Of a stretch of 64,000 nucleotides of DNA, positions 42,569-59,472 are shown piece after piece. Position 1 is the first letter of the stretch. Every line of letters starts with the position of its first letter. Under the pieces are notes generated by a model. That model made no database searches and was not told the origin of the DNA. It worked only from the letters and a program-made list of their open reading frames with translations. The DNA lies in UHGV virus genome UHGV-0298424; one strand, given 5' to 3'. A program made the position numbers and the translations under genes. The DNA comes from a virus.

Positions 42569-42774
42569 TTCCCCTTTTTCTTACGTTGTTTTTATATATT
42601 GTGACCTGACGTTGGTAAAACTTTTTATCAACACTTTTCTTAAACCCATCGTTTAGTTAAGCAGGCCACTTTTTTCGCGCACTCTACTCCTCCCTACGGG
42701 GAGGAGCTATCTTATGCTTCGGTTGTAATACACGTCGGTCTTAGACCACTAACCTTTTGAAATGGAGAGCTGTT

Positions 42775-43003: not shown

Positions 43004-43028
43004 CTCCTACCCTCTTAGAGGGTAGGAG
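43004..43028. terminator. bidirectional terminator
   Basis: CTCCTACCCTC-TTAG-GAGGGTAGGAG flanked by A9 and T7 runs; between convergent genes. Confidence 0.6.
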
Positions 43029-44366: not shown

Positions 44367-47300
44367 ATGGCTGTCGTCTTAGACCCACACTTCAAAAAAC
44401 CGGGGAATAAAATAACCGGTGAAGCGGTCGCCGTCATTGGTACGAAATACCGAATGTTGGTACCTGCCCACGCCCCTTTTTTCACCACATCCCTGGTGGT
44501 CAAGAGCGGCGGCAAAATACTGACCTTAGGCGACGATTACGTTATTACACACCCGTACGAGACTGGTATGTTGCGCACAGCCTATCTCATTCACGGGATG
44601 ATTTGGATTGTTAATGACAAATACAAATCGAACTTTACTGTAGATTACCATGCTGTTGGTTGTGGCCAGGCTACTCAGCAGCAGATTACCGCAGAGCGCG
44701 AGCTTAATAAAGGTAAATACCCCTCCGCGTGTCAGTGGGACACCGTTATCGGAGACGTTTACTTTCCACCGGTCGATATCCAGTTCGATTGGGAGAATTG
44801 GAAAGGTGAACTGGAGCTAATGCAGGCCATTGCTGGGGTAGGCGATTCGTTAGGGGAAGTCGTGAGTCGTCTTAACCCAATCGCACGCAATACACTGGAT
44901 TTGGAATATCGTGCTAATAGCAAGGTTATCACTTCCGAGCAGTATGCTGCGTACGATAATAAAGGCGGTTTCACCTACAACACAGCTCGCCACCGTTATA
45001 GCCTGAGTTATAAAGCGACAACCTTTAACAACTATTCCCTGTCGGTGAAACACAGAATTCCTGCTATTCTGCCAGACATGACAAAGTTGAATCCGAACGA
45101 ACAGATCGATTGGATGCTCTGTTATGCCAACGGCGGTGCAAGTATTCTACGGTTACAGCTAAAACAGCGCAAAATCTCACTGGTCTTAACTGTCGCTATT
45201 GGCAGTGGTTCAACAAACTACGATTATACTTTAATCAACGGTTTAACTGACGATGAGTTAAAAAACGATATCGATTTTAGTGTAACCCGACAACCCGGAA
45301 ACGGCGTTTACGTAATCGTAGTAAAAACAAATAAACAGACCATGGATTATACGTTCAACGTCGATACGCCGCCTGATGAGTTCTCGGCAGGGTATTCGAA
45401 AACGGATGTAGCCAAATGGTTGAAGTCTAAAACGAACATTAACCTGAACTGGTATGCGGCTGAAAACGATTATGTTCAAATTCGTTCTTTACCCGGCGCG
45501 CCGGAGCCTGACGTCGATAACGATGTTTACCAGTTAATAGTTAAGTATCATCAGTTGGTTGAGCAGCTGTATCGTAATGCGCCTGCGCACGAACACGTTA
45601 CACGTAAGGACAACCCACACACAGATACGTGGGGTCCGATCCGTGCGTTAGAGTTGAACGGTATTGCGTCGGATGCAGCATTAGCTTACGGAAAAACGAA
45701 GCCGCAGTTAACGGATTATGTTAATGCTAAGTATCCAACACAAGCGACGCTGACAGCACAAAAGAAACTATTGCGCACGTCAGCTACGAAAACGGCTAAC
45801 GGAACTATTGGAACGCTGCCCGGTTTTACTTCGTTCACGACGGAAGTTGACCCGGTGTCAATGTCGAAATACGTGAGTCCTCGTTTTAGCGAAAGCTACG
45901 TTAGTAATGGTCACAGGTATCACGGTGCGCTTCGTTACACAGGAACGAAGAGTGGATTCGCCACTTCTTTTAATGCGGTACCTGCTAACCTGCAAGATAT
46001 TGACTTTATTGTTACCGGACGTAAAACAGCGTCTGGTAATGAAGCTGTCGGTACGGTTAGCCTACGTTTCTATCAGAAACCTGGTACTAACTCTGGAAAA
46101 TTTATCCAGCTTACAGGTGAAATTTCTGCGGGTAAAGTCGGCGTTAAGTTGGAACTGAACGGTTTTTCGAATCCCACACCGGAAGTTCAGTATCTTTCCC
46201 AAGCTCCTAATCCAGCAATACCGGATGGGGATTTTACGCTGCGTTTTCAACTGAAACGCACAGGGAACGTGTTTGATGTCGTTATTACCATAAACGGCAA
46301 GACATACAGTGCACGTGTTAACTTCACTAACATGGACGCTGCACTAGAAGCATTGGAGAATAGCCACCACTTTAAATCATTGATCAGTAATGTTGCTGAC
46401 AATGTCACTATTAGCTCGGGGAATAAAGGTAACACGGTTACCATTAAGAAAGCGCCCGACGTCGTTGACGGGACCAGTTTAGGTGCCCAGTTTGTCGTTG
46501 ACCCGAAATCCATTAAGTTTATTGGACAAGGTTCAACCGAGGTTAATGCGGGGAATAACCCTGTAACGTTTCAAGCAGGTACTAACCAACTTATATTGTA
46601 TCCTGATGATCGTGGGTTACAGTGGCGTGGTAAGAAACTCTTAGACCCCACTACCGTGGCTCCGTATCTGCCAGGCAATACCGCGGGCGGTACGGGATTA
46701 TTCTACGGTACATCTACAACCACGGTAGAACTTACCGGTAGCGGGATAAAAGCATCGCCGTTCGTAGCGACTTTTATTCTCCCTACCGCGACCGATACAA
46801 CAGCCCTGGCAGCTTGGCAGTTGACCGATGAGTTTGGTACCGCTGAAAACCTTGCAGCAACGCCAGCACTGATTGAAAAACTCGATGCGGAGTTCACCGG
46901 TAAATTAGTTGCGGTTAAATCGTACATTAACGACATGCAACTTACCAGCTCGGTCACTATCGACAAAATTACCTTTGGTTTAGGTAACGTTGCGAATACA
47001 CCCGATGTCAATTTACCGATTTCTACAGCACAACGTGCGGAGTTAGATAAATACTCGCCTAAAGTTCACCAACACCCGTTTACCGCTTTTGGTACTGGGA
47101 ACGCAACCACAGCGAAACGTGGTCTGATTAAATTTGGTCTGGATGTGGATGATGCGACTTTAGCACTCGATGGGAGTGTGGTAATGGCGCAGACTTCCCA
47201 GATTGAAAAATTGGAAAATGCTGTCGGTGGCGTTGACTCGGGTGCTCGCGTTGACATTATTCGTTTCGGCAAGTCTGGTGACGACTTAATTAACGTTACG

Positions 47301-48689
47301 GTTAAAGACAAAATTCTGGCTATGCTCCCCGCTTCAACGTACTTTGTTGGTGGTGAGACGTATGACGTACCGTTAATGTCGGTTAACGTCACTGAACGTT
47401 TCCCGAATCCGAAAACGTTGATCTACGCAGGAATTTTTGTTGATATTGTTGACAACAAAGCGAAGTATGTTATCCACGACAGCTACAATCAGGCTGAAAC
47501 GGATACCATGACGCGCGTGGGAAGACTCGTTGTCAATGAGCTTTCCGAAGTGGACGTAGTGGAATTGCGTAACGTGACACGATTAGGCGAATTCCACGAG
47601 CTGAAAGACCACATCGCTAATGACAACGCACACATTCAACGTTCTGCTTCGCGCGCAGTATTGGGGTTAAGTGATTTAACAGTAGGTGCACCTTGCTGGG
47701 CTTCTGGACTCCAGGCAGTAGTGCGTGGTGAAGCAGATTGGCGTTATGTTGTTCGTGGACAGTATAAAGCATTAGACGGGGTGAAATACGACCAGATCGC
47801 ATCAAAGTGGATTTTCGATGCGAAAGGGGTAAGTGACAACGTTCACGGGTTTATTCACAACTTATTCCCGACTTTCAAAAACGCAGGAATGCGGGTAAGT
47901 TGGGAAACAGAAAGCAACGCAAAAACCGGAACAGTGTTAGAAACTGTTTTAGGTTGTTGGAAGAACACCGACGGCGAGTTTATGCGGTTGTCATTACTTA
48001 TCACTCGCGGTTATCGTTTAACTGACAGTAACGGTGAATATTGTTACGCAGGGTTCGGTTTGAACTTCGGTAGCGGGAAATCGGTAGTGGTAGGTTTCAC
48101 ACCAACGAAGCGTGTTACGCCTGCACCGTGGAGTTCATTACGACCTGACGTAACGTTTACCCACACCCGTGGTGCAAACAACGCAATAACGTTTAATGCA
48201 TCGCTGACTTTAGCTGGCACTGTGTATACTATCGTGGTGTTTTTATCCGCGACAGATAAATACGTAAGCTGTACGGCGGCAGGGGGAACTACGCAGAAAA
48301 TCCCATTAGCCGACCGTTTAACCGGGTTCAATATCGAACCTATCGTTAATGATCCGTATACCCCTATTTACTACGGTTTAGGGGGACTTTATGAGGATGA
48401 GGTTCGTGCCAACATCCGCTCTACAGCAGACAGCGCAACTGCGAACAAAGTCTACGGTACGTTGTTGGACTATGTTAGCAACTATTCCTCATTAAATCGA
48501 GTACGCGTCATGGAATTGTCCGGTGTCAGCTCAGACCCCGAAACGCTTAATGCGTTAGTGGCAACTGAATTTAATAACAACCTGGCAGATTACGCTGCGT
48601 TACCGATACCTCCTTATCTTAACAAGGAGCGCGTAATGTCGTTTATCGACACCGACAATAAAGTGCAGGCGGTAATCATTCGCGATTAA
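44367..48689 (+). CDS. tail fibre protein (1440 aa)
   Basis: TAGGAG SD; N-terminal P-x-x-PFF...G-DY-x-x domain shared with the next three genes; KITFGLGNVANTPDVNLPIS fibre-type repeat. Confidence 0.65.
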   Translation: MAVVLDPHFKKPGNKITGEAVAVIGTKYRMLVPAHAPFFTTSLVVKSGGKILTLGDDYVITHPYETGMLRTAYLIHGMIWIVNDKYKSNFTVDYHAVGCGQATQQQITAERELNKGKYPSACQWDTVIGDVYFPPVDIQFDWENWKGELELMQAIAGVGDSLGEVVSRLNPIARNTLDLEYRANSKVITSEQYAAYDNKGGFTYNTARHRYSLSYKATTFNNYSLSVKHRIPAILPDMTKLNPNEQIDWMLCYANGGASILRLQLKQRKISLVLTVAIGSGSTNYDYTLINGLTDDELKNDIDFSVTRQPGNGVYVIVVKTNKQTMDYTFNVDTPPDEFSAGYSKTDVAKWLKSKTNINLNWYAAENDYVQIRSLPGAPEPDVDNDVYQLIVKYHQLVEQLYRNAPAHEHVTRKDNPHTDTWGPIRALELNGIASDAALAYGKTKPQLTDYVNAKYPTQATLTAQKKLLRTSATKTANGTIGTLPGFTSFTTEVDPVSMSKYVSPRFSESYVSNGHRYHGALRYTGTKSGFATSFNAVPANLQDIDFIVTGRKTASGNEAVGTVSLRFYQKPGTNSGKFIQLTGEISAGKVGVKLELNGFSNPTPEVQYLSQAPNPAIPDGDFTLRFQLKRTGNVFDVVITINGKTYSARVNFTNMDAALEALENSHHFKSLISNVADNVTISSGNKGNTVTIKKAPDVVDGTSLGAQFVVDPKSIKFIGQGSTEVNAGNNPVTFQAGTNQLILYPDDRGLQWRGKKLLDPTTVAPYLPGNTAGGTGLFYGTSTTTVELTGSGIKASPFVATFILPTATDTTALAAWQLTDEFGTAENLAATPALIEKLDAEFTGKLVAVKSYINDMQLTSSVTIDKITFGLGNVANTPDVNLPISTAQRAELDKYSPKVHQHPFTAFGTGNATTAKRGLIKFGLDVDDATLALDGSVVMAQTSQIEKLENAVGGVDSGARVDIIRFGKSGDDLINVTVKDKILAMLPASTYFVGGETYDVPLMSVNVTERFPNPKTLIYAGIFVDIVDNKAKYVIHDSYNQAETDTMTRVGRLVVNELSEVDVVELRNVTRLGEFHELKDHIANDNAHIQRSASRAVLGLSDLTVGAPCWASGLQAVVRGEADWRYVVRGQYKALDGVKYDQIASKWIFDAKGVSDNVHGFIHNLFPTFKNAGMRVSWETESNAKTGTVLETVLGCWKNTDGEFMRLSLLITRGYRLTDSNGEYCYAGFGLNFGSGKSVVVGFTPTKRVTPAPWSSLRPDVTFTHTRGANNAITFNASLTLAGTVYTIVVFLSATDKYVSCTAAGGTTQKIPLADRLTGFNIEPIVNDPYTPIYYGLGGLYEDEVRANIRSTADSATANKVYGTLLDYVSNYSSLNRVRVMELSGVSSDPETLNALVATEFNNNLADYAALPIPPYLNKERVMSFIDTDNKVQAVIIRD

Positions 48690-48702
48690 GGAGAATTTTT
48701 TG

Positions 48703-51700
48703 ATGAAAGCGTATCCTTACGATCCTCGGGGGACGAAAACCGAGAATCACTTCTTAGAGGAGCGTATCATCGGGTCAGAAAACAACAACGATCGGGTGGT
48801 GATTTTAGACCATCGCCCGTTCTTTGAAGATTTAGTCGTCAGACAACCAGGTTCAACCACCCCACTGAGTCGTGGGGTGGACTACGAACTGCAATATCAG
48901 CTGACGGAACTGGATGACTCGGTAGCAGCCAACGTGTATTGTGGGGTACACCTTATCAACCCTTCCATCAAAGGCATCGTAACCTTTGAAGGACAAATGC
49001 TCGGCGGTACGTTCTACGACCCGTTTGTTGATATTCTCGATGAGCTGGTGAAATATTTGAATAACCCAGTCAGCGCTGACTGGTTGTTATTAGAAGGCAG
49101 ACCGTCGTTATACCCGGCTACGCCTGCGGCAACGTCTTGGGCGGATTTGCTAAACAAAAAATATTTAGCGTCGGCAGTCCACGATGTTGAATTGAAAACC
49201 GATGACGCTAACCAGTTAATTAAAGATAAATTAGCCGAAGTTAAAGCGTTAGTCGCCGCGCTGGGTAAAGAAATCGAGACATTTAACTACCCGGCACACA
49301 TCGCGGAAACCAACCCGCACCAAACCACTTCTGCACAGATTAACGCACATCCTGTTAACTTGAAAACACCCGACACCTTTATGGCGTACGGGTTAAAGTT
49401 GAAAGCATTGACGGATGAGCTGAAAGCGTTTCGTTTACCACAGTCAGTTATTGACACGTATATCTCCCACTGGATTTCTTCAGAAGTACGGGGTGTGTTT
49501 AACTGTACGGTGTCAGGAAACCGTGCACAGTTCCGCTCAAAAAACGGTGAGTCAGAAATCATTTTTGCGAATGATGGCTTTACGTTAAAATCCAACGGTT
49601 CTGTAGTGTTAGCGGTAGGGCATCTGGAAGGAACGGGTGCAGGACGTTACATTAACTGGCGTGCTGGTAAAAACATCCTACGTATCGAGTCAACAGGCGA
49701 TGCTTTAGGGATGAACAAACTCACCCTAAACGGTAACCCGTTACTGACCACCACAGCATTGATGGAATACCAACAAGATCCTGATGCTGGCGGGAGCGGT
49801 GGCGGTGACCCCGACGACTCAAAGGTGTACATCGAAGGCCGTAATGGGATTAGCTTCACCGGTAAAGGCTCTCGGACCGATCCTATCGTGGGTACTATCG
49901 ACCCGACGAAAGCGACAACCACTGAAAAAGGTGTTGTTAAGCTTAAAACTGGTAAAGGTACAGAAATCGTTGGGGTTGCAGCAACTCCGGCTTCGTTAGC
50001 GCCATATGCGACCGACCTATCGGGGTATGTGGCTAAAACGACCATGATTAACGGTAAGCCAATGAATGACGGCTCCAGGACAATCACGAAAGCTGACCTG
50101 GGGTTAGGGCAAGCGGATAATACCGCAGATCTTGACAAACCGTTGTCAACCAAGTTAACTGAGGCGGTTAGCGGTCTAGCAGATGTGGGCCATCATCACG
50201 ATTGGTCGGAGTTAGGTATTTATAAAGCTTCTCAATCTGTTTACGGTATTGGTCGTTATGCAACTAACCAGAACGGTTTGGTTGAAAACCGTGCAGTGGT
50301 ACCGAACATCCTAAAAGAGCTTTCGGCACGTTTAAGTGTGGTCGCTGCGGCAATTGCAAATGCGAAAGAAGGAACAGTCACGGATTTCGCTGCTGTAAAA
50401 GGCGCAGACTGGCGATTTAATAGCCAGGGTACGGCAATCTCCGTTCAGGATTTGAAATATTTCTATTTGCTGGACGGCATGAAAGGTGACAGTACCGTTA
50501 CCGGTGCGATTGACCTGCAAACCACTCCGATGTTTAACTGGTTCTCACCGAACAACCAACTTGAGCTGACTTGGCCTACGGGTAAGGTGAGTAAAGGTAC
50601 CGGGATTAGTTGGGATGGAATTGTTGATCCCCCAACAATGGGGTTTCAGTCAGTTCCGGTAGGTAAAAGCGCCACCCAGATGGGCGTTCAGTCCGTTGTA
50701 TCGGTACTGGCTAAAACGCGCGTCAAAGCTCGTCAGAAAAGGCTGTTTGTTTATGCCGCTGGCGGTGGGACAATAACCGTTTATGTAAATGGTGTTGTAG
50801 GCGCTACTGGTGCGTCGCCATTGTTAATGAACTATGGAACGTCTCCAGATGTTGAAAACTACACAATTGCTGTTAAAGCAGAGTGTAGTGACACGGCTAA
50901 ATCTGCAGCGGTACAGTTCGAAGTTTACGATGGTGACTACCCCGTTTATTTCAGTGGTCCTGAAACGCGTGTAGAGCTTCTCCAGGAGTTTGTCACAACG
51001 CATGTAGGTATTCGTCATTATTTGTACGTTAACATGCTCACAGGCTCTCTGTATTCGCGTGCTGAACCAGTTCAAGGATTTGAGGTCGATCCAGAACGCG
51101 GATATATCGGTTATGTTGATATCGTTCCTGGTCAGTCTTACGCGAATAAAACCGTGGGATTTGAAACCACGTTTGATTTCGGGAAAAGTGCGGAAGTTAG
51201 CGAGCATAATAGTATTCGTAAGGCACACGGTCTCAACGCTGCGGACTGGTCACTGACGGATAACCCACGGTTGCCGTTATTAAACCGTGCTATTGCCGAA
51301 CCAAGAGCGTGTATCTTTAGGAAACCGTTAGCAACCGCTACAGGGGATGTTTTCCATCTTGTCAGTCGTGGTCTTTATACTTACGCACACAACCAAAACG
51401 TGAAGTCGAGTCTTCAATACGTTGTGATACCTGAAGGTGCTACGCCGTATTGTTGGTTTACACCATTTAACCCGAAAGAAAACAACGCACCGACATTCGA
51501 AGGCTCGTTTGCGTTCGATGTTGACGATGTTGGTGGAACGCAAGCCCTTGCTGCTGCGCCGGATTTGGTTCTATGCACGTCAACGCAAGGTAGCAGCGTT
51601 AAACGTCGCTATCTGCGCATTGACCTAACTACCAAAACCTGTAAGTTGGGGATTGGTTCCCGTTCAGATTCTGCTGTTACGGATATTCCGTTAGTGATGG

Positions 51701-52884
51701 AGGAGTCTGGGGAAACGGCAGTGGCCGCAACGTTTAAGGATGTGTTGTTCAACGGTGAGGAAACCAACGCGGCGACGCTCGACTTGATAGGTTGGGGTGC
51801 CAGCCGAGATAAAATTTCTGCAAACCATGCACCTCGTGGCATGATTCGCTATCGTTACAACGTAAACAGTCGGGTATTACGTTTAGCACTGACGTTCTCA
51901 CAGTTCGGAACGACAACAGTTAAACATCGACAGCTGGAGATTCAATTCCCGTTCGATTTAGTGGATTATTTCACTGGCGACGGTGTGGGATTGTCGTTTA
52001 AAGAACTGTCTGCGAAATGCCGTGTAACGATTAGTCACGCGCTGATTGATCCGGCTACGAGTAACGTCGACATTGATAAGTACCATTACTTACGTTCGTT
52101 GTTCGAATCGTATCTGGATTCGTCCGTTGGGTATTTGGCTGATACCAAAGACGTTGATTTTAGTCAGACTGTGATTGACCCCGCGACTTATGAGATTAGT
52201 CAGAAATACCGCGTTACAGAAAGCATCGCGCTGCCAACCGGCCAGGGAAGTGTTGCTGTTTCACATGACGGTCAGTTGCCTGCGCAGTTCTTTGACCGTA
52301 AGCTGTCTCGTGGTGCCTTGATGGCCAAGAAAGGTGAACTCAACGCTTCCTGGAATAATGAGTGGAGCACGACTAAAGCTGCTGCGAGTCGTTATCGCCA
52401 TAAACTCATTCTACGCTTTGCACAAGGTGCTGATAAACAGCAGTATCGCGTTGCAAAAGTGGCCGGGACGGTGAAGTCTAACTGGCCGGGTAAAGTGATT
52501 ATCGGTGATGCCGGGAAGGACCCGTATGTATCGGCTATTGATAGCGTATCTTTTGCGCTTTCGACCGCCTCTGATACAGGTAAAGCGATTACTCTTACGC
52601 CAAAGGACTTACGTGTAGGTCAGGACATTTATATTGTCTTAGAACCGCCCGGCAATAATCCGGAAGGTTATGAACTTAACTTTACCTGTTCGTTAGATGT
52701 CACTGACGAGAAAGGTGTCCGTCAAGATCAACTCAATGCACAGAGTTTCGAACTCCGTAGCGGCGAAAGTCAGTTCTTAATGGAGAAACGCAACCCGTAC
52801 CATATCACGAGTAAAGCGTGGAAGTGGATTTTGGCTGTACTGAAACGTGAACTTAACGGGAAGCAGTTAGGGGATCGTACTTAG
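48703..52884 (+). CDS. tail fibre protein (about 1393 aa)
   Basis: ATG 48703 after AAGGAGA; shared N-terminal domain; KATTTEKGVVKL and TITKADLGLGQADNTADLDKPLS fibre-shaft motifs; tandem terminator hairpins after stop. Confidence 0.7.
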   Translation: MKAYPYDPRGTKTENHFLEERIIGSENNNDRVVILDHRPFFEDLVVRQPGSTTPLSRGVDYELQYQLTELDDSVAANVYCGVHLINPSIKGIVTFEGQMLGGTFYDPFVDILDELVKYLNNPVSADWLLLEGRPSLYPATPAATSWADLLNKKYLASAVHDVELKTDDANQLIKDKLAEVKALVAALGKEIETFNYPAHIAETNPHQTTSAQINAHPVNLKTPDTFMAYGLKLKALTDELKAFRLPQSVIDTYISHWISSEVRGVFNCTVSGNRAQFRSKNGESEIIFANDGFTLKSNGSVVLAVGHLEGTGAGRYINWRAGKNILRIESTGDALGMNKLTLNGNPLLTTTALMEYQQDPDAGGSGGGDPDDSKVYIEGRNGISFTGKGSRTDPIVGTIDPTKATTTEKGVVKLKTGKGTEIVGVAATPASLAPYATDLSGYVAKTTMINGKPMNDGSRTITKADLGLGQADNTADLDKPLSTKLTEAVSGLADVGHHHDWSELGIYKASQSVYGIGRYATNQNGLVENRAVVPNILKELSARLSVVAAAIANAKEGTVTDFAAVKGADWRFNSQGTAISVQDLKYFYLLDGMKGDSTVTGAIDLQTTPMFNWFSPNNQLELTWPTGKVSKGTGISWDGIVDPPTMGFQSVPVGKSATQMGVQSVVSVLAKTRVKARQKRLFVYAAGGGTITVYVNGVVGATGASPLLMNYGTSPDVENYTIAVKAECSDTAKSAAVQFEVYDGDYPVYFSGPETRVELLQEFVTTHVGIRHYLYVNMLTGSLYSRAEPVQGFEVDPERGYIGYVDIVPGQSYANKTVGFETTFDFGKSAEVSEHNSIRKAHGLNAADWSLTDNPRLPLLNRAIAEPRACIFRKPLATATGDVFHLVSRGLYTYAHNQNVKSSLQYVVIPEGATPYCWFTPFNPKENNAPTFEGSFAFDVDDVGGTQALAAAPDLVLCTSTQGSSVKRRYLRIDLTTKTCKLGIGSRSDSAVTDIPLVMEESGETAVAATFKDVLFNGEETNAATLDLIGWGASRDKISANHAPRGMIRYRYNVNSRVLRLALTFSQFGTTTVKHRQLEIQFPFDLVDYFTGDGVGLSFKELSAKCRVTISHALIDPATSNVDIDKYHYLRSLFESYLDSSVGYLADTKDVDFSQTVIDPATYEISQKYRVTESIALPTGQGSVAVSHDGQLPAQFFDRKLSRGALMAKKGELNASWNNEWSTTKAAASRYRHKLILRFAQGADKQQYRVAKVAGTVKSNWPGKVIIGDAGKDPYVSAIDSVSFALSTASDTGKAITLTPKDLRVGQDIYIVLEPPGNNPEGYELNFTCSLDVTDEKGVRQDQLNAQSFELRSGESQFLMEKRNPYHITSKAWKWILAVLKRELNGKQLGDRT

Positions 52885-52946
52885 GACAGACTGCCTGCGG
52901 GCAGTTGTCTGTCCGTAGGTAACCCCTCCCTGTAATGGGGAGGGGT
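52884..52946 (+). terminator. tandem hairpins after the 1393-aa fibre gene
   Basis: GGACAGACTGCC...GGCAGTTGTCTGTCC then ACCCCTCCC-TGTAAT-GGGGAGGGGT followed by ATTTTATTT. Confidence 0.5.
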
Positions 52947-52978
52947 ATCCATTTTATTTAAAAGTAGGAGTCTTTACG

Positions 52979-55900
52979 ATGCCGAGAGAAGACGCGGCGC
53001 AGTTTAACGGTACGCTAAGCACAGCGACGTACCCTAACCGATTTAACGTGGTCATTCCGCCTGAAGGACCTTTTTATCGTATCGGATTAAAACTCACAGT
53101 AGCCGACGATACCGCGCCTAACGGACGTCGTACTCTGATTGAGGGGTTGGACTACTATTTAGGCTATTACTTTAAAGAACTCGCAGAAGCTGAACAAGAT
53201 CAGATTTATGGCGGGTTTATGTTGCTTACTGCAACAGAAATCGAATATGAGATTTTAGGGGTAGCACGGCAGTATCGTGTACCGCAATCTGAAATCGGGA
53301 AGTTCTTAGTTCGTACTGACCTGAAAGACCCGCGTAACGTGGACTGGTCGGAGTTAATGGCGTACGCGCCGGTTATTCAACCAATCGACCCCCCTGCTAA
53401 CTTAGAAGAAGCTATTCTGAGGGACGAGGTCGTTAAAGCGTTGAACGATATCCGTAAGAAAATCGTTCAGCGTTCAACAGAGTTAGATGCGGCCTTCACC
53501 GAAGTCACTAACCTGATTTACGAGAACGGTAAAAAGATTTTCGATGAAGAACTATACCAACACCACCTTAATCCTAACGCTCACCAGTATACGACCAATG
53601 ACGTTGGGGCCCTTCCGGTTTTAGGACGTGCTGTTGACGCTACAAAAGCGTTTGGGTTGACAATTGACCAACTGGCTACGCTGATGGGTTCGGCGGGCAT
53701 TGAGCAATCAGACGTTGAACAGCTAATGGGTGAAGCCCTCGGTACCGTTTACGGTCGTTGGGGCACCACGAACGGTAACGAACTAACGTTTAAAACACCG
53801 GGTGGACACATCATCAGCATCCGTGGTGATAAGTGGTTAATTACCTCCCCGCAACCGTTAGTGATTAAAGCAGACCAAGACAACAACGAATCCGGTTTGG
53901 CGGTTGAGTTTAGTGCGGGACTGAATACGCTTTGGGTACACTCTGGGTCAGAACAGGATGTATTAGCACCGGTCTATAACTCTGTGTATCTCGTTACACC
54001 AGAAATGGTGAACATGTACCTGACGTCTGTAACGTTACTTGAAGCGAATGCCTATTTCAAACCGTCAGACACCGTAAAACCGTACGGTACAGCGAAGCAG
54101 TCTAACCCACTAACGTTGAACGCGAATATTCCCACAGCAACCGAGTCGGTTTATGGGGTGTTTTCGATTACGAATATCGCAACCTCTGTAGCGCTAGGCA
54201 CTGCTATTTCCCAAAAGGCTGTGACCGAGTTAAAAAACCGGTTGGACTTGTACGTTGACGACGACTACACGGTTAACGGTAAAGGGTTTGTTAAGACAGG
54301 CGACAACATGGTGTTAACCTTAACGAAGGCCGATTTCGGTATCGATAAGATGAATAACACCACACCCATCGCTAAACCGGTAACAAAAGCATTAGCGAAC
54401 GTGCTGAAAAATAAAAGTTTGAAGGTACACACGCACACTACCGCTGATTTGGATAATGTCCCGATTGGTAGCGCAACAGTTGACGGTATCTTACAGCTGT
54501 GGGATGCGATTGATACCACGAATGATAAAGCCGTCACATCACGCCAAGGGTGGCTGTTCGCAAAAGAGATTAAGAAGGTCTCTGATAAACTGAATACCCT
54601 CTTGCCCGCATGGACAACGGCCGGGAGCAAATATACCAACAATTCGATATTGCCGATCTTGTCGATGGGTAATTACGAAGGTTATGGTAAAAACATGGAT
54701 GCGCTCCAGATGGTTATAGGGGTACAACAAGGTAAGCTTTATGCTTTAATTAGCTCTAAATCCGCCCTTCCGGGAACTGAGGGTATTTATTACGCTGTTG
54801 CTGGGTTAAAAAACGACAAAAGTCTCGGTGAAATTTACAAAACAACTTTCCGTTATAAGCCGAAAGGGTTAGAGACGAATTATCCGGGGGTGGAACTAAA
54901 AGAAATTACCGTTACTGGTACCGAAGCATTTATAGCGAAGGGCAGCGACGATAATTATTATTTAGTTAAACTGAACGGTTCAATGGATTACACCAAACAT
55001 ACCGATGTCAGGTTGGTAACTTTCTCAGAATTTGTTTCAGAAACAACATGGGAATTTGTGCCGAATATGTTCATGGATCGTGTGGTCATAGCCGATAACG
55101 GCGTCTATGTTTTGCGTACGATGCTAATGGCCGATCTGAAAAACAATACTCTGGTGGACTACATTAAGGATACCCCACAACCCATGTTCCGTGTTGGCTT
55201 ATTGCGGCTTAATAAAACCGATCGGTTTGAACAGGTTGATTTAAGGTCTACACGAAAAATCGGTAAGTGTGCCGATTTGGTTGAACCTGGCGCGTTCGAT
55301 GTAGATAATCCGAATACGAAGCGTCTTGCCTACTTCACTGCGGAAGGCAAAGCGTTGTGGACAGTGAACTTACAATTAACTAGAGGGTCGTCAAGATGGA
55401 TAACGCCCGTTGTTAAGGACGGTCACTTGTTAACCGTCGGCGTGTCTGGTGTTTGTCTTGGTTTTTCTTCAACGAAAGGTACCACATTCGGGCCATGGAA
55501 TGGTGCTTATCGTCTTGACCTATTAACCGGGGAGGTTGGGTTAGAGACAACTAACGTCTTCCCAATCAAAATCGATACTACAGGTTGTTACTTAAAAGAC
55601 GGAACAAAAATAGAGCTGAAATGGAAATGGGCTACTCGAAGTTCTGGCTATATGGCCGACAATAGAATCTGTGTCGGTGATATGGTTTATTCTTGCTGCT
55701 GTTCGACAGAAAAACAACTCGCACCATCTCTCCATTACCAGAAACTCCCAGAAGGAGTTAGTTATCTGGACTATGTTAAGTTGAGTGTGGGGTATGAGGG
55801 GCAATCTACGTTTGAAAATCGGATAAACCCTGTGGTGGGTTCGGTGTGGAAACCGTCTATGACCTTCCCATTGTTCTTCCCAGGAACAAACAAAGTATGG

Positions 55901-58165
55901 CTTAAACATCAAAAATCGGCTTATTTCATTGAAGCCGAATATGATAAAAATACGACCTATGGTTATCCTGGATACGGTGGTTTTGGACCAACATCCCGCC
56001 GTGTTGAAAAAACAGCGAACGAATACGGCATATTGACAAATATACCGCTGGTTGTTACGCCAGAAATACCGAACGGCCTACTAGAAGGGGCTTATTTTAT
56101 CGGTGCCGAAAGTAAACCGTGTACAGTTGTTTACGGTACCACTACGGTGGGTAGTGATCGGTTGTCTATCGATGCGGCAGAATGGGCGAAGCTGACTAAT
56201 ATTGTTCAGTCCAGCCAGTTCTCCGGGGCATCTAACGGCAACGCCTATGAGCGGATTAGCGTAGCTAAGACCAAAAAGAACAACTACAGTTTGTCCTTTT
56301 GGGTGCTTGGTCAAACGATGTCTGGTGGTCCGCTTTGTATCGCGATAGTGAGTCTTATCTATAAAGACACTGACGGGGTAAATAAGTTTGCTTTTTACTT
56401 CTTTCAGGTAAAACCGACTATAACCAACGGGGTCATAAGGTTCGTTAGTTCGGAAGCGAGAATGATGACGTTCAGGGAAAAAGTGGCCAGTAACGCCATT
56501 AATCTCTCACCCACAGCTTTTAATGGTGAACTTAAACAACGCTCCGGTCAAGTTTTCCTTTATTCGCAAGACGGACAAAAGTTCAGATTCTCAATACATA
56601 ACCTGGTTGGTGGGAATCTTGTAGGATCAGAGATTTCTTTTGCTTTTGGGATAAACTTGACTAAAAAAGGCGAATGGTTTACCGGCGAAATTCATCGGGC
56701 GTGGGGCTATACGTATACGCTGAATAATACATCTGAAGTCTATATACCCGATCTCTCGGGCATCGCGCTATTGACTTGTAACTCGGAAGATTTAAACGAG
56801 TTGTATCTCGGCGGCGAACAGTATAGAATCTCTGATTTGTTTAACAAAAAATATACTGTTATCGATAAGATTATTATTGGCGGCGTACAAACACAGAGCG
56901 GTTGGAATTTCTATCTGACGGAGGAAACCGAGTTAAGTTTTGGAAATAAAAGATATACCGTTCCAAGATGGTCCGTTGATTTAAGCGATGAATTCCCGAC
57001 TAATCACGCTAACCAGACGTTCTACGTTTATGCTGAAGTGGTCGGTTCTACTGCCCAATACCGCATCGGTTTAGAGCAGTTAGCTGATACCTCGTCGAGA
57101 CTGTTTGTTGGGACAGTAACCACTGATTCGAACCGTATTACGGATATCAGTATCGATAAAGTAAAACGGTTAGGTCGTGTAAAAGAGCTGGAAAATCATG
57201 CCTCGATTGTTGATCAACACGATGTGGCGCAGGCATTCGACAGGAAAACTGGCCCACTATTAACGCTGGTTAATAAACCCGTTAAAGTCGTTACAGCATC
57301 TGCGAGCAAGGGTGCTGGGTATGTCGATGGTCAGAAATGGAATACGTTGTCCGGGATTACAACACGTTCCAGGTTGCCGGTACAGGAAACCTATTCAGGT
57401 TATAAAAGTATCAGCAGGGTGGCGTATGAGAACTGCGCTGACCAGTTCTGGCAGAAAGCGGTTGCTGCGAACGTTGCAGCGGCTACTGCTTCTGAGAACA
57501 AACAAGCAGCAACCGCGAACATGAAGTGGTTGGGCGCGTATACGAAACCGACTACTGGCGAGTATGCATATCTGGCATTGAGTCTGCGTGTTAAAGTACC
57601 TGGCGATCCTGGTACTGCTAATCGTAGACTGAAAATCAGGCTTGCGGCCCCGACAGGTATAACTCAAGTTCGTTACGGGCTAAATCAGTCTGGCGGTACG
57701 ATGACTGAACAGACAGTAACGCTAACTGCTAACAGTTACCTGGAAAAAGAACACGCGGGATTTAAGCCAGCCGCCGAAGTCCGCCTTCATGCTACGTTTG
57801 TCATTCCAAAAAATGAATACGATAGTTACCGGACCAAATTTGGTGCTGTTCAGCTGATTGACGTTGAGACGAACACTGTCATTAAACAGACAGATATCGA
57901 CACACCGTTTATCGTGTACACCGCCACAGAGCAAGCGGCACAATCTGGTTTGGTGTATAAAGCGGTTAAGAGTCAGTTTCGTCAACTCCCGGCTCAACCT
58001 GTCGTCATTGTAACTGATGGACAGACAGGGACTACACCACCGGTGAAAACCGCGTTTTCTGACGGGACATTAACGGTCTACGTGGCAACCACGTACGATG
58101 CGGTTAACCCAGCACAAACTCGCGATATCGATAAGCTCCAGTTCAATCTTATGTTTACATCTTAA
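52979..58165 (+). CDS. tail fibre protein (1728 aa)
   Basis: shared N-terminal domain (PPEGPFYRIGL...GLDYYLGYYF); LTLTKADFGIDKMNNTTPIAKPVT motif; very long ORF. Confidence 0.65.
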   Translation: MPREDAAQFNGTLSTATYPNRFNVVIPPEGPFYRIGLKLTVADDTAPNGRRTLIEGLDYYLGYYFKELAEAEQDQIYGGFMLLTATEIEYEILGVARQYRVPQSEIGKFLVRTDLKDPRNVDWSELMAYAPVIQPIDPPANLEEAILRDEVVKALNDIRKKIVQRSTELDAAFTEVTNLIYENGKKIFDEELYQHHLNPNAHQYTTNDVGALPVLGRAVDATKAFGLTIDQLATLMGSAGIEQSDVEQLMGEALGTVYGRWGTTNGNELTFKTPGGHIISIRGDKWLITSPQPLVIKADQDNNESGLAVEFSAGLNTLWVHSGSEQDVLAPVYNSVYLVTPEMVNMYLTSVTLLEANAYFKPSDTVKPYGTAKQSNPLTLNANIPTATESVYGVFSITNIATSVALGTAISQKAVTELKNRLDLYVDDDYTVNGKGFVKTGDNMVLTLTKADFGIDKMNNTTPIAKPVTKALANVLKNKSLKVHTHTTADLDNVPIGSATVDGILQLWDAIDTTNDKAVTSRQGWLFAKEIKKVSDKLNTLLPAWTTAGSKYTNNSILPILSMGNYEGYGKNMDALQMVIGVQQGKLYALISSKSALPGTEGIYYAVAGLKNDKSLGEIYKTTFRYKPKGLETNYPGVELKEITVTGTEAFIAKGSDDNYYLVKLNGSMDYTKHTDVRLVTFSEFVSETTWEFVPNMFMDRVVIADNGVYVLRTMLMADLKNNTLVDYIKDTPQPMFRVGLLRLNKTDRFEQVDLRSTRKIGKCADLVEPGAFDVDNPNTKRLAYFTAEGKALWTVNLQLTRGSSRWITPVVKDGHLLTVGVSGVCLGFSSTKGTTFGPWNGAYRLDLLTGEVGLETTNVFPIKIDTTGCYLKDGTKIELKWKWATRSSGYMADNRICVGDMVYSCCCSTEKQLAPSLHYQKLPEGVSYLDYVKLSVGYEGQSTFENRINPVVGSVWKPSMTFPLFFPGTNKVWLKHQKSAYFIEAEYDKNTTYGYPGYGGFGPTSRRVEKTANEYGILTNIPLVVTPEIPNGLLEGAYFIGAESKPCTVVYGTTTVGSDRLSIDAAEWAKLTNIVQSSQFSGASNGNAYERISVAKTKKNNYSLSFWVLGQTMSGGPLCIAIVSLIYKDTDGVNKFAFYFFQVKPTITNGVIRFVSSEARMMTFREKVASNAINLSPTAFNGELKQRSGQVFLYSQDGQKFRFSIHNLVGGNLVGSEISFAFGINLTKKGEWFTGEIHRAWGYTYTLNNTSEVYIPDLSGIALLTCNSEDLNELYLGGEQYRISDLFNKKYTVIDKIIIGGVQTQSGWNFYLTEETELSFGNKRYTVPRWSVDLSDEFPTNHANQTFYVYAEVVGSTAQYRIGLEQLADTSSRLFVGTVTTDSNRITDISIDKVKRLGRVKELENHASIVDQHDVAQAFDRKTGPLLTLVNKPVKVVTASASKGAGYVDGQKWNTLSGITTRSRLPVQETYSGYKSISRVAYENCADQFWQKAVAANVAAATASENKQAATANMKWLGAYTKPTTGEYAYLALSLRVKVPGDPGTANRRLKIRLAAPTGITQVRYGLNQSGGTMTEQTVTLTANSYLEKEHAGFKPAAEVRLHATFVIPKNEYDSYRTKFGAVQLIDVETNTVIKQTDIDTPFIVYTATEQAAQSGLVYKAVKSQFRQLPAQPVVIVTDGQTGTTPPVKTAFSDGTLTVYVATTYDAVNPAQTRDIDKLQFNLMFTS

Positions 58166-58205
58166 CGCCACGAGACAAGGACGTCTCGGATTAAGGAGAG
58201 TGGCC

Positions 58206-59405
58206 ATGGCCTCCATTGTATACCAATACCCTTTAGATTTAACGGGAACCCTAACCTCTAACGCCGTGGAGCGTCAGATTACGTTAGGTACAGGCAAAGT
58301 TAACCGTGCGTTTGCTTTCCCTGATGGTCCGTTTTATGCCGATACGTTCCGCTTGCGGGTTGCCAATCGACCTGGAGCGACATATGAGCGTGGAACGGAC
58401 TATGAACTGATTTTTGCACACCCGGCTTATGAGAAATTGACGAAGAACCGGGAAGTGGTAATGGCGGTTGTTGTAACGAACACCGCGATTCCGACCGATA
58501 TCACGGTATCGGCGCAAGTAGTTGGTGGTCCGCAGTCTGCAAATGTGACCGCGATTGAGCAAGCGATTGCCGAGTTGAAACTCGATAATCGAACTGTTGG
58601 CTTTAAAGACTTGCGAAATGTGCCGGACACGTTTCCTTCAGCACCAACGTATAAAGACGTCGGTGATATTTACGGCTTCGAATATATCATTACAGTGCTC
58701 GCTGGCATTAAAGATGCGATAACTGCGGGTGATGCTGTACAGCTTGAGAACATCAAAGCGATTCTCGAAAGCCTGAAAAACGATTTCCTGGACGCGCTGA
58801 ACGCGCACATTAACTCCACTGGTAACGTCCACCATCTGGATATTCATCAGGTTAACGGGTTAACAGAAACGGAAATCCGCGCTTTAATTCGCAGTGTTCA
58901 GACAGCCATTGATGCAACGATTGCCGATATCAATGCATTGAAGAAAGCGGACGTAGCGTTAGGAAAACGTATTGATGCCGTTGTCAAATCTCTGGAAGCG
59001 TGGAACGACCAACTTAACGTCGTTGCACAAAACTACCAGAAAATGGCACTGGCAATGGCGAACCTAAACTCGTTAGTGTTACAGTTACAGAAAAATATCA
59101 ACGATCTGAGCACCAAACTCAACCAAGCGATTCAACGTATTGCTGCGTTAGAGCAACGGGGTAATGAGACTGATCAGAAAATTGATAAACTGCAACAAAA
59201 CCTGGATGCGCTTAAACAACAGGTTGCGAATAACACGAACGCTATTAGTCAGGCGAATCAGAACCTACAAAACCACATTGCGGCGGATAATCCACACACA
59301 GGTTACCTGCACAAGAAATACGGTGGCGTGGTTCAGGCTTCAGTACACGTTAACGCTAACTTGACGTCCCGTGATGACGTTCAGGCAGAAGCAGGTACGA
59401 AATAA
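58206..59405 (+). CDS. coiled-coil fibre protein (fibritin-like)
   Basis: ATG 58206 after AAGGAGAG; N-terminal domain FPDGPFYADTFRL...GTDYELIF homologous to the three giant fibres; long heptad-repeat region. Confidence 0.6.
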   Translation: MASIVYQYPLDLTGTLTSNAVERQITLGTGKVNRAFAFPDGPFYADTFRLRVANRPGATYERGTDYELIFAHPAYEKLTKNREVVMAVVVTNTAIPTDITVSAQVVGGPQSANVTAIEQAIAELKLDNRTVGFKDLRNVPDTFPSAPTYKDVGDIYGFEYIITVLAGIKDAITAGDAVQLENIKAILESLKNDFLDALNAHINSTGNVHHLDIHQVNGLTETEIRALIRSVQTAIDATIADINALKKADVALGKRIDAVVKSLEAWNDQLNVVAQNYQKMALAMANLNSLVLQLQKNINDLSTKLNQAIQRIAALEQRGNETDQKIDKLQQNLDALKQQVANNTNAISQANQNLQNHIAADNPHTGYLHKKYGGVVQASVHVNANLTSRDDVQAEAGTK

Positions 59406-59460: not shown

Positions 59461-59472
59461 TAAGGATACGTG

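What the first reader, a model, noticed from the sequence alone, without database searches (positions are those of the whole stretch)
44367..59405. Four consecutive fibre genes share an N-terminal domain; three are 1393-1728 aa
The N-termini of the 1440-, 1393-, 1728- and 399-aa proteins share a pattern (P-x-x-PF[FY]...G-x-DY-x-L...), consistent with a common attachment domain fused to different distal regions. The shafts carry fibre-type repeats (KADLGLGQADNTADLDKPLS-like). Four fibres of this size plus a coiled-coil fibritin-like protein suggest a branched, multi-receptor adsorption apparatus, and they are the natural candidates to interact with products of the downstream radical SAM cluster.
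Basis: partly seen in the sequence, partly recalled or inferred. Interest (0 to 1): 0.45.

Follow-up and report, generated by a model that had tools for sequence, protein, structure and literature searches.

The report
Jumbo-phage baseplate fibre paralog cluster
Four neighbouring genes of an uncultured SPN3US-like giant phage share the baseplate-anchoring N-terminal domain known from phiKZ gp131 and carry different, swappable outer parts, so this is a new example of a fibre gene family already described in related phages.

Summary
All four proteins (A 1440 aa, B 1393, C 1728, D 399) carry one homologous N-terminal domain, and no other ORF in the 64-kb window does. It is the "gp131-like N-terminal domain" of phiKZ gp131/133/134/135. 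The four genes are orthologues of SPN3US gp170/169/168/167, phiEaH2 gp092-089 and CR5 161-158. In SPN3US these are virion tail proteins; gp168-170 are published as "paralog family C".

The shared part is larger than reported. A, B and C share a collinear ~535-aa proximal module with invariant His motifs. D shares only the first ~215 aa and continues as a coiled coil.

The divergent gene upstream (43035-44297) is the homologue of phiKZ gp130, the platform under which fibres dock in the 2026 phiKZ cryo-EM atlas.

Against a close metagenomic relative, the proximal parts are 95-100% identical. C residues 600-1300 are only 20-43% identical, which points to a swapped cassette; the distal-region model of C contains a beta-propeller.

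The "fibre repeat" occurs once per large protein, not as an array.

The proposed radical SAM link is not supported. That cluster has its own Cxxx-repeat target peptides.

Verdict: new member of a known kind, low to moderate interest.

The parts
43035..44297 (-). Homologue of phiKZ gp130 and SPN3US gp171 (420 aa). Predicted peripheral-baseplate platform under which the fibres dock. Transcribed divergently from fibre gene A.
   Evidence: BLASTP against phiKZ-type gp130 (KTN4_165): E 3e-12 over the full length. PHROG 3337, E 4e-144. SPN3US gp171 is an essential tail protein (PMC5105663). In the phiKZ atlas, fibre sites lie beneath gp130.
44367..48689 (+). Fibre paralog A (1440 aa), orthologue of SPN3US gp170, phiEaH2 gp092 and CR5_161.
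   Evidence: PHROG 7557, E 0. BLASTP to orthologues. N-domain HMM, E 1.4e-11.
44382..44960 (+). A: gp131-like N-terminal domain plus helix (aa 6-198).
44961..45509 (+). A: class-A-specific insertion 1 (aa ~199-381), between the N-domain and the rest of the shared proximal module. Present in all A orthologues.
   Evidence: hhalign A 382-923 ~ B 168-519. HMM of this segment hits only A orthologues.
45849..46391 (+). A: lineage-specific insertion 2 (aa ~495-675). Absent from the phiEaH2, SEGD1 and CR5 orthologues. Present in the metagenomic relative P0016/L012.
   Evidence: BLASTP breaks at 492/494 -> 672/677. No tblastn hit in the phage collection. P0016 is 91% identical over 1440 aa.
46533..47159 (+). 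A: distal half of the shared proximal module (aa ~723-931), with the single fibre motif FGLGNVANTPDVNLPIS (aa 870) and an HxH motif (VHQHP).
47262..47666 (+). A: second shared module (aa 966-1100), homologous to C aa 1291-1425. Contains RLG..EL..H......AH.
   Evidence: hhalign E 5.5e-10. phmmer hits in A-, B- and C-class proteins.
48703..52884 (+). Fibre paralog B (1393 aa), orthologue of SPN3US gp169, phiEaH2 gp091 and CR5_160.
   Evidence: PHROG 8078, E 0, full length. 52% identity to phiEaH2 gp091.
48703..50262 (+). B: proximal module (aa 1-520). Components: beta-rich N-domain aa 1-105 with helix 108-119; long helix 153-194; H199/H206 motif; fibre motif LGLGQADNTADLDKPLS at aa 466; HxH at 497-499.
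   Evidence: AF2 model pLDDT 77-92 for aa 1-100, helix 153-194. Invariant residues. hhalign B 32-518 ~ C 24-506, E 8.7e-27.
52922..52946 (+). Strong hairpin (11 bp stem, 7 G-C pairs) in the 94-nt gap between B and C. Possible attenuator or terminator within the cluster.
52979..58165 (+). Fibre paralog C (1728 aa), orthologue of SPN3US gp168, phiEaH2 gp090 and CR5_159. Its N-domain groups with phiKZ gp131.
   Evidence: PHROG 7449, E 0. NJ tree. BLASTP.
53048..54496 (+). C: shared proximal module (aa 24-506), with motif FGIDKMNNTTPIAKPVT at aa 453 and HTH.
54776..56878 (+). C: hypervariable cassette (aa ~600-1300). Beta-rich and lies within the distal model that contains a beta-propeller. Candidate receptor-binding or glycan-acting region.
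56849..57253 (+). C: second shared module (aa 1291-1425), homologous to A aa 966-1100.
   Evidence: PHROG 3573
58206..59405 (+). Paralog D (399 aa), orthologue of SPN3US gp167, phiEaH2 gp089 and CR5_158. Its N-domain groups with phiKZ gp135/134/133.
   Evidence: PHROG 2163, E 1e-103. tblastn to phiKZ-type KTN4_170. NJ tree. SPN3US gp167 detected in virions.
58221..58865 (+). D: gp131-like N-terminal domain plus helix (aa 6-220).
58863..59279 (+). D: long coiled-coil segment (aa ~220-358), followed by a short His-containing C-terminal end (HIAADNPH).
   Evidence: Only sub-threshold coiled-coil family hits. Sequence read directly.

Best explanation
These four genes encode the peripheral baseplate fibre and receptor-binding set of an uncultured SPN3US/phiEaH2-like jumbo myovirus of about 225 kb. 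They belong to the phiKZ gp131 paralog family.

Each protein begins with a ~105-residue beta-rich domain, followed by a linker and a ~40-residue helix. By homology with phiKZ, six such domains and six helices (a six-helix bundle) form the root of each fibre. That root docks under the gp130-like platform encoded divergently just upstream.

Beyond the root, A, B and C continue through a shared ~535-aa proximal shaft module. This module carries invariant Hx6H and HxH motifs, inferred to be metal-binding nodes as in T4 gp37 and gp12. The three proteins then diverge into large, beta-rich distal regions that act as exchangeable host-recognition modules. D is a short coiled-coil member.

Shown here:
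- homology of the N-domain to phiKZ gp131/133/134/135;
- synteny of the cluster with related phages;
- the conserved-proximal, variable-distal pattern.

Taken from orthologues: virion and tail location.

Inferred: the docking geometry, metal binding and receptor binding.

Not resolved: how the six root positions are divided among A, B, C and D.
For: - N-domain HMM hits phiKZ gp131 (9e-29), gp135 (7e-24), gp134 (3e-17), gp133 (3e-16) and window A (1.4e-11). It hits only four ORFs in the window.
- The gp130 homologue is adjacent and divergent. The same order, gp130(-) followed by a paralog array, is seen in phiKZ/KTN4, 201phi2-1, phiEaH2, SEGD1, CR5, Vibrio pVp-JHP1101 and RTH11.
- The phiKZ atlas reports six gp131-like N-domains and a six-helix bundle beneath gp130, at 12 sites (PMC13250141).
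- SPN3US gp167-170 are in virions at similar low abundance; gp168-170 are absent from a tailless mutant and gp168 is assigned as a tail protein (PMC5694885, PMC5105663).
- The AF2 model of B 1-545 has a confident N-domain and a long helix at 153-194.
- The shared 535-aa module is supported by hhalign and carries invariant His residues.
- The proximal regions are conserved while the distal regions vary against relative L012, including a swapped cassette at C 600-1300.
- The distal model of C contains a beta-propeller of the lectin, glycosidase or sialidase fold class.
- The domain always sits at the extreme N-terminus of 3191 protein clusters ranging from 159 to 2488 aa.
Against: - No virion data exist for this phage itself.
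- No solved structure of the N-domain is in the PDB copies searched. Foldseek's best hit has E 0.088, and phmmer with gp135 finds nothing. The structural equivalence therefore rests on sequence homology and on a ~4.4-4.6 A rigid-body fit published for phiKZ, whose composition the authors call 'candidate'.
- The propeller match is fold-level only. The gp131 C-terminal structure 4gbf is not among the listed top hits, and the profile comparison with gp131 C is null (E 0.69).
- The receptor-binding role of any of the four proteins is untested.
Confidence: 0.85

Rival explanations
1. Four independent homotrimeric fibres. Each paralog forms its own homotrimer, and two trimers share each six-membered root. 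With two roots per baseplate lobe, there is one A3, one B3, one C3 and one D3 per lobe, giving 18 copies of each per virion.
For: - Four paralogs recur in phiKZ, 201phi2-1, the SPN3US-like phages and the Vibrio phage. This matches four trimer slots per lobe if each of the 12 roots holds two trimers (geometry).
- The SPN3US authors report similar relative abundances for gp168-170.
- Known phage fibres are almost always homotrimers (general knowledge).
- HxH motifs fit three-fold metal sites.
Against: - The phiKZ authors assign gp131x3+gp133+gp134+gp135 to both roots.
- SPN3US gp167 (D) is consistently 1.5-2.4 times more abundant per unit mass than gp168-170 (my calculation from the counts).
- No multimer prediction could be run here.
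Confidence: 0.4
2. Heteromeric roots as proposed for phiKZ. One homotrimer (here most likely D3, a coiled coil) joins one copy each of A, B and C. The collinear proximal modules of A, B and C would form a pseudo-three-fold heterotrimeric shaft that then splits into three different heads.
For: - The phiKZ candidate model is 3+1+1+1.
- A, B and C share a collinear 535-aa module with the same invariant His motifs.
- In SPN3US mass spectrometry A, B and C are roughly equal and D is higher.
- The distal part of C is predicted as globular, monomer-foldable domains (pTM 0.57).
Against: - By N-domain class the phiKZ x3 subunit (gp131) corresponds to C, not D, and C is not in excess in SPN3US.
- A carries two insertions of ~180 aa inside the module.
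- Heterotrimeric phage fibres are rare.
- Spectral counts are only semi-quantitative.
Confidence: 0.3
3. The fibres are substrates or partners of the downstream radical SAM enzymes.
For: Adjacency of the fibre cluster to radical SAM genes is conserved in the window, phiEaH2, SEGD1/SPN3US and CR5.
Against: - Each radical SAM gene in the window lies downstream of a small Cxxx-repeat protein. Both small proteins reach NCBIfam TIGR04114 'tSAM_targ_Cxxx' (20.1 and 22.3 bits, cutoff 20). These peptides are the expected substrates.
- No product numbered gp162-166 appears in the SPN3US virion tables.
- Vibrio pVp-JHP1101, phiKZ, 201phi2-1 and RTH11 have the fibre cluster without nearby radical SAM genes.
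Confidence: 0.05
4. The proteins are structural baseplate components with no role in host recognition.
For: Annotations say only 'virion structural protein'. The gp131 location was originally given as the baseplate periphery (PMC5105663).
Against: - The distal cassette is replaced between close relatives while the anchoring parts stay 95-100% identical. That is the signature of receptor-binding proteins.
- The distal model of C contains a propeller of the lectin or glycosidase fold class.
- A tail-fibre motif and fibre PHROG hits are present.
Confidence: 0.08

Closest known systems
phiKZ gp131, gp133, gp134 and gp135 (with 201phi2-1 gp216 and gp218-220)
   Same: - Homologous N-terminal domain plus helix (E 1e-16 to 1e-28).
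- Tandem paralog array immediately downstream of, and divergent from, the gp130 gene.
- Virion proteins, per the record notes.
- N-domain class C groups with gp131 and class D with gp133-135.
   Different: - The phiKZ proteins are much shorter (457-771 aa against 1393-1728 aa).
- phiKZ has no class A or class B members, but has three D-like paralogs.
- In this sample the 535-aa proximal module with fibre motif and HxH was detected collinearly only in the SPN3US-like and Vibrio-phage proteins and in metagenomic representatives.
- No detectable sequence similarity to the gp131 C-terminal propeller.
SPN3US gp167-gp170 ('paralog family C' = gp168-170), phiEaH2 gp089-092, CR5 158-161
   Same: One-to-one orthologues in the same order and with the same neighbours: a gp171/gp130-like gene upstream and a radical SAM cluster downstream. 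In SPN3US they are virion proteins (gp168 assigned as a tail protein; gp168-170 absent from a tailless mutant).
   Different: - Identities are only 31-78%.
- A carries an extra ~180-aa insertion (aa 495-675).
- The published family C lists three members. The fourth, gp167/D, shares the domain too.
- The window has a second copy of the small radical SAM gene and of its target peptide.
T4 gp37 and gp12 type fibre segments with HxH metal sites (analogy, from general knowledge)
   Same: Invariant HxH and Hx6H motifs inside a beta-rich shaft module. A widespread tail-fibre motif G-L-G-x-x-x-N-T-x-D-x-x-K-P-x-S is present.
   Different: No significant sequence or fold match to T4 fibre structures. 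5nxh (gp34) has E 1.5 and 5iv5 has E 7.5. Metal binding was not tested.
Multi-RBP adsorption devices of rV5, CBA120 or G7C-like phages and PhiKp24
   Same: Several different receptor-binding proteins are encoded in tandem and share N-terminal attachment modules.
   Different: No homology detected. Pfam, NCBIfam and PDB sequence searches were empty, and fold searches returned no match to those proteins. The attachment logic here is six N-domains and a six-helix bundle under gp130, not fibre-on-fibre branching.

Membership tests
phiKZ gp131-like baseplate fibre paralog family (SPN3US paralog family C) | gp131-like N-terminal domain at the extreme N-terminus | tested here: met
   HMM built without A or phiKZ sequences hits phiKZ gp131/135/134/133 at 9e-29 to 3e-16 and window A at 1.4e-11. 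All four hit PHROG 2163. The domain starts at residues 1-10 in nearly all of the 150 best library hits.
phiKZ gp131-like baseplate fibre paralog family (SPN3US paralog family C) | A long helix after the N-domain, able to join a six-helix bundle | tested here: inconclusive
   The AF2 monomer model of B predicts a helix at 153-194 (pLDDT 66-85) after a low-confidence linker. The bundle itself could not be modelled because no multimer tool was available. The other three paralogs were aligned but not modelled.
phiKZ gp131-like baseplate fibre paralog family (SPN3US paralog family C) | Tandem paralog array next to, and divergent from, the gp130-type platform gene | tested here: met
   43035-44297(-) against phiKZ-type gp130: E 3e-12, full length. 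The same layout is seen in seven phage genomes.
phiKZ gp131-like baseplate fibre paralog family (SPN3US paralog family C) | Presence in the virion tail or baseplate | not testable with these tools
   Known only for orthologues. SPN3US gp167-170 were found by mass spectrometry; gp168-170 are absent from a tailless mutant and gp168 is assigned as a tail protein. 201phi2-1 gp216-220 were also found by mass spectrometry.
phiKZ gp131-like baseplate fibre paralog family (SPN3US paralog family C) | Six N-domains per docking site beneath gp130 (a hexameric root) | not testable with these tools
   Reported for phiKZ only. The coordinates are not in the PDB copies searched.
gp131 proper (C-terminal seven-bladed beta-propeller, PDB 4gbf) | C-terminal propeller homologous to gp131 C | tested here: inconclusive
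T4 fibritin (Wac) | Trimeric coiled coil ending in a foldon, with sequence or Pfam match to fibritin | tested here: not met
   D has a coiled-coil segment but only sub-threshold generic coiled-coil hits. No fibritin family or PDB fibritin match was found. Its N-terminus is the baseplate gp131-like domain, not a neck-binding one.
Pfam phage tail fibre repeat families (PTR PF12789 and similar) | Repeat units above the family threshold, in multiple copies | tested here: not met
   Best hit is PTR at 15.1 bits against a cutoff of 27, in C only. The regex finds a single motif copy in each of A, B and C.

The most novel reading that the evidence does not exclude
The four paralogs are not four separate fibres but obligate partners of one hetero-oligomeric root. 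A D3 coiled-coil trimer would join a pseudo-three-fold A-B-C heterotrimer, held in register by the shared 535-aa module with common HxH metal nodes. The heterotrimer would then split into three different monomeric receptor-binding heads. This would be a heterotrimeric, three-headed phage fibre, conserved as four ancient N-domain classes across SPN3US-like and Vibrio jumbo phages.
Probability: 0.2. Interest if true: 0.55.

Novelty: new member of a known kind. Interest (0 to 1): 0.22.

Why it matters
The result places an uncultured ~225-kb phage, seen in many metagenome assemblies, in the SPN3US/phiEaH2 group. It also identifies the phage's adsorption genes and their likely docking partner.

Three points add modestly to the literature:
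- The small coiled-coil protein (the SPN3US gp167 orthologue) belongs to the same N-domain family as 'paralog family C'.
- A, B and C share a much longer proximal module, with invariant His motifs.
- The N-domain is a very large family (more than 3000 clusters at 50% identity) with no Pfam or NCBIfam model in the copies searched, and it is always N-terminal. Together with the conserved-anchor, swapped-cassette pattern, this suggests a plug-in anchor for exchangeable receptor-binding modules.

The C cassette at aa 600-1300 is a concrete target for host-range engineering. None of this changes the current picture of jumbo-phage baseplates.

Tried and rejected
- Pfam and NCBIfam scans of all four proteins gave no family for the N-domain or the distal parts, only coiled-coil noise for D.
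- PDB sequence searches with A, B, C, D and phiKZ gp135 found nothing relevant. Only the gp131 C-terminus (4gbf) is deposited in the copy searched.
- Foldseek of the B 1-545 model against PDB gave no significant hit. The best were the phage Milano baseplate receptor-binding complex (E 0.088), and E217, Pa193 and T4 baseplate chains at E > 2.
- I tested whether A's extra insertion (aa 495-675) is a duplicate of A aa 199-385. It is not significant (hhalign E 0.01, probability 4%; HMM E 0.37). It has no tblastn match in the phage collection.
- I tested whether the distal regions of A, B or C are homologous to the gp131 propeller at profile level. The result was null.
- The search for homologous proteins with D 1-227 returned only close D orthologues because of its word-index sensitivity. 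The exhaustive HMM search was needed.
- The Goslar structure preprint does not resolve the fibres.
- The sigma-70 promoter scan found fewer sites than shuffled controls, so it is uninformative for this phage type.
- Exact-sequence counts in metagenomes (D in 66 blocks, C in 39, B in 16, A in 0) were not interpreted further. They depend on protein length and contig fragmentation.


Full report
**What is in the sequence**

The region holds four same-strand genes:
- A, 44367-48689 (1440 aa)
- B, 48703-52884 (1393 aa from the ATG; the ORF list starts one codon earlier at a TTG)
- C, 52979-58165 (1728 aa)
- D, 58206-59405 (399 aa; orthologues start at this ATG, not at the upstream 58098 ATG)

The gaps between them are 13, 94 and 40 nt. 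A 420-aa gene lies divergently upstream at 43035-44297 on the minus strand.

Megablast of the 15-kb region against 50,697 phage records finds only short 72-85% matches, to Erwinia phages (phiEaH2, Asesino, Stratton) and to SPN3US-like Salmonella phages. The window is therefore a new relative of the SPN3US, Erskinevirus and CR5 group of jumbo myoviruses. Identical D and C proteins occur on ~225-kb metagenome scaffolds.

**Check of the observation**

All four proteins match PHROG 2163 with their N-termini, at E 5.6e-17, 6.4e-30, 2.9e-40 and 1e-103. Pairwise BLAST is significant for B-C (2e-18, aa 28-504 against 20-491) and B-D (1e-7, aa 4-214 against 8-217). For A against the others it is only 0.1-0.3.

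I built an HMM from the first 220 aa of the B, C and D orthologues of four phages, leaving out A and phiKZ. It finds window A at 1.4e-11 (aa 6-198). In a six-frame scan of the whole window it hits exactly these four ORFs out of 279.

P39, F40 and D60 (B numbering) are invariant and G58 nearly invariant in a 41-sequence alignment.

Two details need correction:
- The tail-fibre motif ([FL]G[LI][GD]...N[TS]...KP[LVI][ST]) occurs once in each of A (aa 870), B (aa 466) and C (aa 453), and not in D. Pfam's phage tail repeat model stays below threshold. These are single motifs, not repeat arrays.
- The 399-aa protein is itself the coiled-coil protein (aa ~220-358; only generic sub-threshold coiled-coil hits). 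The set is three large proteins plus one small one.

**What the domain is**

The same HMM hits phiKZ-type gp131 (9e-29), gp135 (7e-24), gp134 (3e-17) and gp133 (3e-16) (phiKZ genes read from KTN4).

The 2026 cryo-EM atlas of phiKZ describes fibre-attachment sites beneath gp130. [quoted passage not shown] There are twelve such sites per baseplate, with a candidate composition of gp131x3+gp133+gp134+gp135 (PMC13250141).

The window's upstream divergent gene is the gp130 homologue (BLASTP 3e-12 over the full length). It corresponds to SPN3US gp171, an essential tail protein (PMC5105663).

The layout "gp130 gene on one strand, paralog array on the other" recurs in phiKZ/KTN4, 201phi2-1 (gp216-220, annotated as paralogs and virion proteins), phiEaH2 (gp092-089), SEGD1/SPN3US, CR5, Vibrio phage pVp-JHP1101 and Xanthomonas phage RTH11.

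In SPN3US:
- gp168, gp169 and gp170 (188, 149 and 135 kDa) are published as "paralog family C", described as baseplate or tail-fibre candidates similar to gp131. They are found in virions and missing from a tailless mutant (PMC5694885).
- gp167 (44.8 kDa, the D orthologue) is also a virion protein but was not listed in that family.

**Extent of the family**

A profile of the four window N-termini was searched against 1.84 billion representative proteins. It finds 3191 clusters at E<=1e-3 and 2272 at E<=1e-10. Among the 150 best hits the domain sits at residues ~1-200 in nearly every case, in proteins from 159 to 2488 aa. Neither Pfam nor NCBIfam has a model for it. Among cultured phages, tblastn with D finds it in 231 records; all listed records are 197-316-kb jumbo phages.

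**Anatomy beyond the N-domain**

- B 32-518 aligns with C 24-506 (E 8.7e-27).
- A 382-923 aligns with B 168-519 (3.4e-16).
- A 335-928 aligns with C 138-512 (5e-11).
- A second module, A 966-1100, aligns with C 1291-1425 (5.5e-10).

A, B and C thus share a collinear proximal module of about 535 aa. D shares only the first ~215 aa.

A carries two insertions inside the module. One (aa ~199-381) is common to all A orthologues. The other (aa ~495-675) is absent from phiEaH2, SEGD1 and CR5 but present in a 91%-identical metagenomic relative.

About 40 library representatives carry the module collinearly. Others tolerate insertions of up to ~1100 aa at a few fixed positions.

The invariant residues include H199 and H206 (an Hx6H motif) and H497 and H499 (an HxH motif). 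By analogy with the HxH metal sites of T4 gp37 and gp12, I infer metal-stabilised trimeric nodes. That analogy comes from general knowledge and was not tested here.

An AF2 model of B 1-545 (mean pLDDT 71.6) gives:
- a confident beta-rich domain at aa 1-105 (pLDDT 77-92) with a helix at 108-119;
- a disordered linker;
- a 42-residue helix at 153-194.

This is the expected arrangement for a domain-plus-bundle root. Foldseek against the PDB found no significant match (best E 0.088, to a phage Milano baseplate receptor-binding complex chain). The phiKZ fibre-root coordinates are not in the PDB copies available.

**Which parts vary**

A relative contig (L012) carries the same cluster. Its gp130 homologue and baseplate gene are 98.8% identical to the window's. 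Its A, B and C are 91%, 87% and 65% identical.

In all three proteins the first ~500 aa are 95-100% identical. C aa 600-1300 drops to 20-43% and recovers to 85-100% after aa 1400. B is lowest (64-78%) between aa 800 and 1200. This is the pattern expected for conserved anchoring parts and exchangeable receptor-binding cassettes.

An AF2 model of C 540-1728 (pLDDT 72.5, pTM 0.57) is beta-rich. Its structural matches are:
- by Foldseek, beta-propeller proteins (E down to 3e-10), GH43 enzymes and the phage phi11 receptor-binding protein;

This is a fold-class match only. The gp131 propeller (4gbf) is not among the listed hits, and profile comparison with gp131 C is null.

**Paralog classes and stoichiometry**

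A neighbour-joining tree of the N-domains has no support values, so it is indicative only. It groups them into four classes:
- A, with Vibrio gp126;
- B, with Vibrio gp125;
- C, with Vibrio gp124 and with phiKZ gp131, 201phi2-1 gp216 and RTH11 142;
- D, with Vibrio gp122, RTH11 141 and phiKZ gp133-135.

The four-way split is therefore old, and four members recur in several lineages.

The spectral counts per kDa in SPN3US are:

| Protein | SC per kDa |
|---|---|
| gp170 (A) | 1.00 |
| gp169 (B) | 1.41 |
| gp168 (C) | 1.08 |
| gp167 (D) | 1.90 |
| Portal (12 copies) | 0.93 |

In three further data sets D is 1.5-2.4 times the mean of the others (my calculation).

Two arrangements fit six N-domains per root:
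- Two homotrimers per root, that is one A3, B3, C3 and D3 per baseplate lobe.
- A hetero-hexamer as proposed for phiKZ, here most simply D3 plus one each of A, B and C.

The data do not decide between them, and no multimer prediction was available.

**The radical SAM idea**

The genes after D are two paralogous small ORFs, 59470-59865 and 60858-61256 (E 3e-17 to each other). Each has a conserved ~57-aa N-terminal part and a Cys/Gly/Ser-rich CxxxC-repeat tail. Both reach NCBIfam TIGR04114 "tSAM_targ_Cxxx" (20.1 and 22.3 bits, cutoff 20). One also weakly matches "Cys-Xaa-Xaa-Xaa repeat radical SAM target protein".

Each is followed, directly or after a 295-aa gene, by a ~300-aa radical SAM gene (59885-60799 and 62832-63770). 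Both are homologues of the single SEGD1_167/phiEaH2 gp084 gene.

The expected substrates of these enzymes are therefore the adjacent peptides, not the fibres. SPN3US virion tables list no product numbered gp162-166. The fibre cluster also occurs without nearby radical SAM genes in phiKZ, 201phi2-1, RTH11 and the Vibrio phage.

**Verdict**

The finding is a correct observation of a gene family that is already described: 201phi2-1 gp216-220, phiKZ gp131-135 and SPN3US paralog family C. The window adds new, divergent members (31-78% identity to cultured orthologues). It also supplies the modest refinements set out above: the fourth family member (D), the longer shared module, the variable cassette in C, and the size of this N-domain family, which has no Pfam or NCBIfam model.

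Novelty: new member of a known kind. Interest: 0.22.

Noticed in passing
window 59470-59865, 59885-60799, 60858-61256, 61937-62824, 62832-63770: RiPP-like radical SAM cluster. Two paralogous small proteins have a conserved ~57-aa leader-like N-terminus and a CxxxC-repeat Cys/Gly/Ser-rich tail, and both reach NCBIfam TIGR04114 'tSAM_targ_Cxxx' just above its cutoff. Each is associated with a ~300-aa radical SAM gene. The small radical SAM gene and its target are duplicated here, relative to the single copy in SEGD1, phiEaH2 and CR5.
   Followed up: partly
window 42687-42706, 43004-43028, 52922-52946: Three strong G+C-rich hairpins of similar sequence type (CTCCTCCC.../...GGGAGGAG, ACCCCTCCC.../...GGGGAGGGGT). 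Two flank the small gene at 42757-42984 and one sits in the 94-nt gap between fibre genes B and C. They may be terminators or attenuators.
   Followed up: no
window 42757-42984 (+): Small ORF (about 69-75 aa) between the baseplate gene and the gp130 homologue. Its counterpart in the relative contig L012 carries a Pfam YdgH_BhsA-like (PF07338) hit. Same-position small genes exist in phiEaH2 (gp094), SEGD1 (177) and CR5 (163).
   Followed up: no
window 45849-46391 (A aa 495-675): A lineage-specific ~180-aa insertion in fibre protein A. It has no match in 50,697 phage records and is not significantly related to the neighbouring A-specific insertion. It is also the most variable proximal stretch against relative L012 (71% identity).
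   Followed up: partly
L012 15742-20925 vs window 54776-56878: A close relative has gp130 and baseplate genes 98.8% identical to the window's, yet carries a C protein whose central ~700 aa are only 20-43% identical. Both flanks are conserved. This indicates cassette exchange inside the gene rather than at its C-terminal tip.
   Followed up: partly
L003 12771-17953 (SEGD1_173 and SEGD1_172): The SEGD1 orthologue of C is annotated as two overlapping ORFs (645 + 1088 aa). Together they align with the single 1728-aa window protein. This is probably a frameshift or a sequencing error in that record.
   Followed up: no
L005 17561-17956; L006 18468-19076: The Vibrio phage pVp-JHP1101 and Xanthomonas phage RTH11 fibre clusters include an annotated tail-fibre assembly or chaperone gene. 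No homologue was seen in the window cluster: Vp_123 has no BLAST hit to any window protein tested.
   Followed up: partly
L002 8806-9138 (phiKZ-type gp132), L007 11818-12141: gp132 and 201phi2-1 gp217 (~110 aa) are not N-domain paralogs. They match a short unit that is repeated several times after the N-domain in gp131, gp133, 201phi2-1 gp216 and RTH11 141 and 142. No BLAST match to this unit was found in window A-C; only a marginal hit to D (E 0.058).
   Followed up: no
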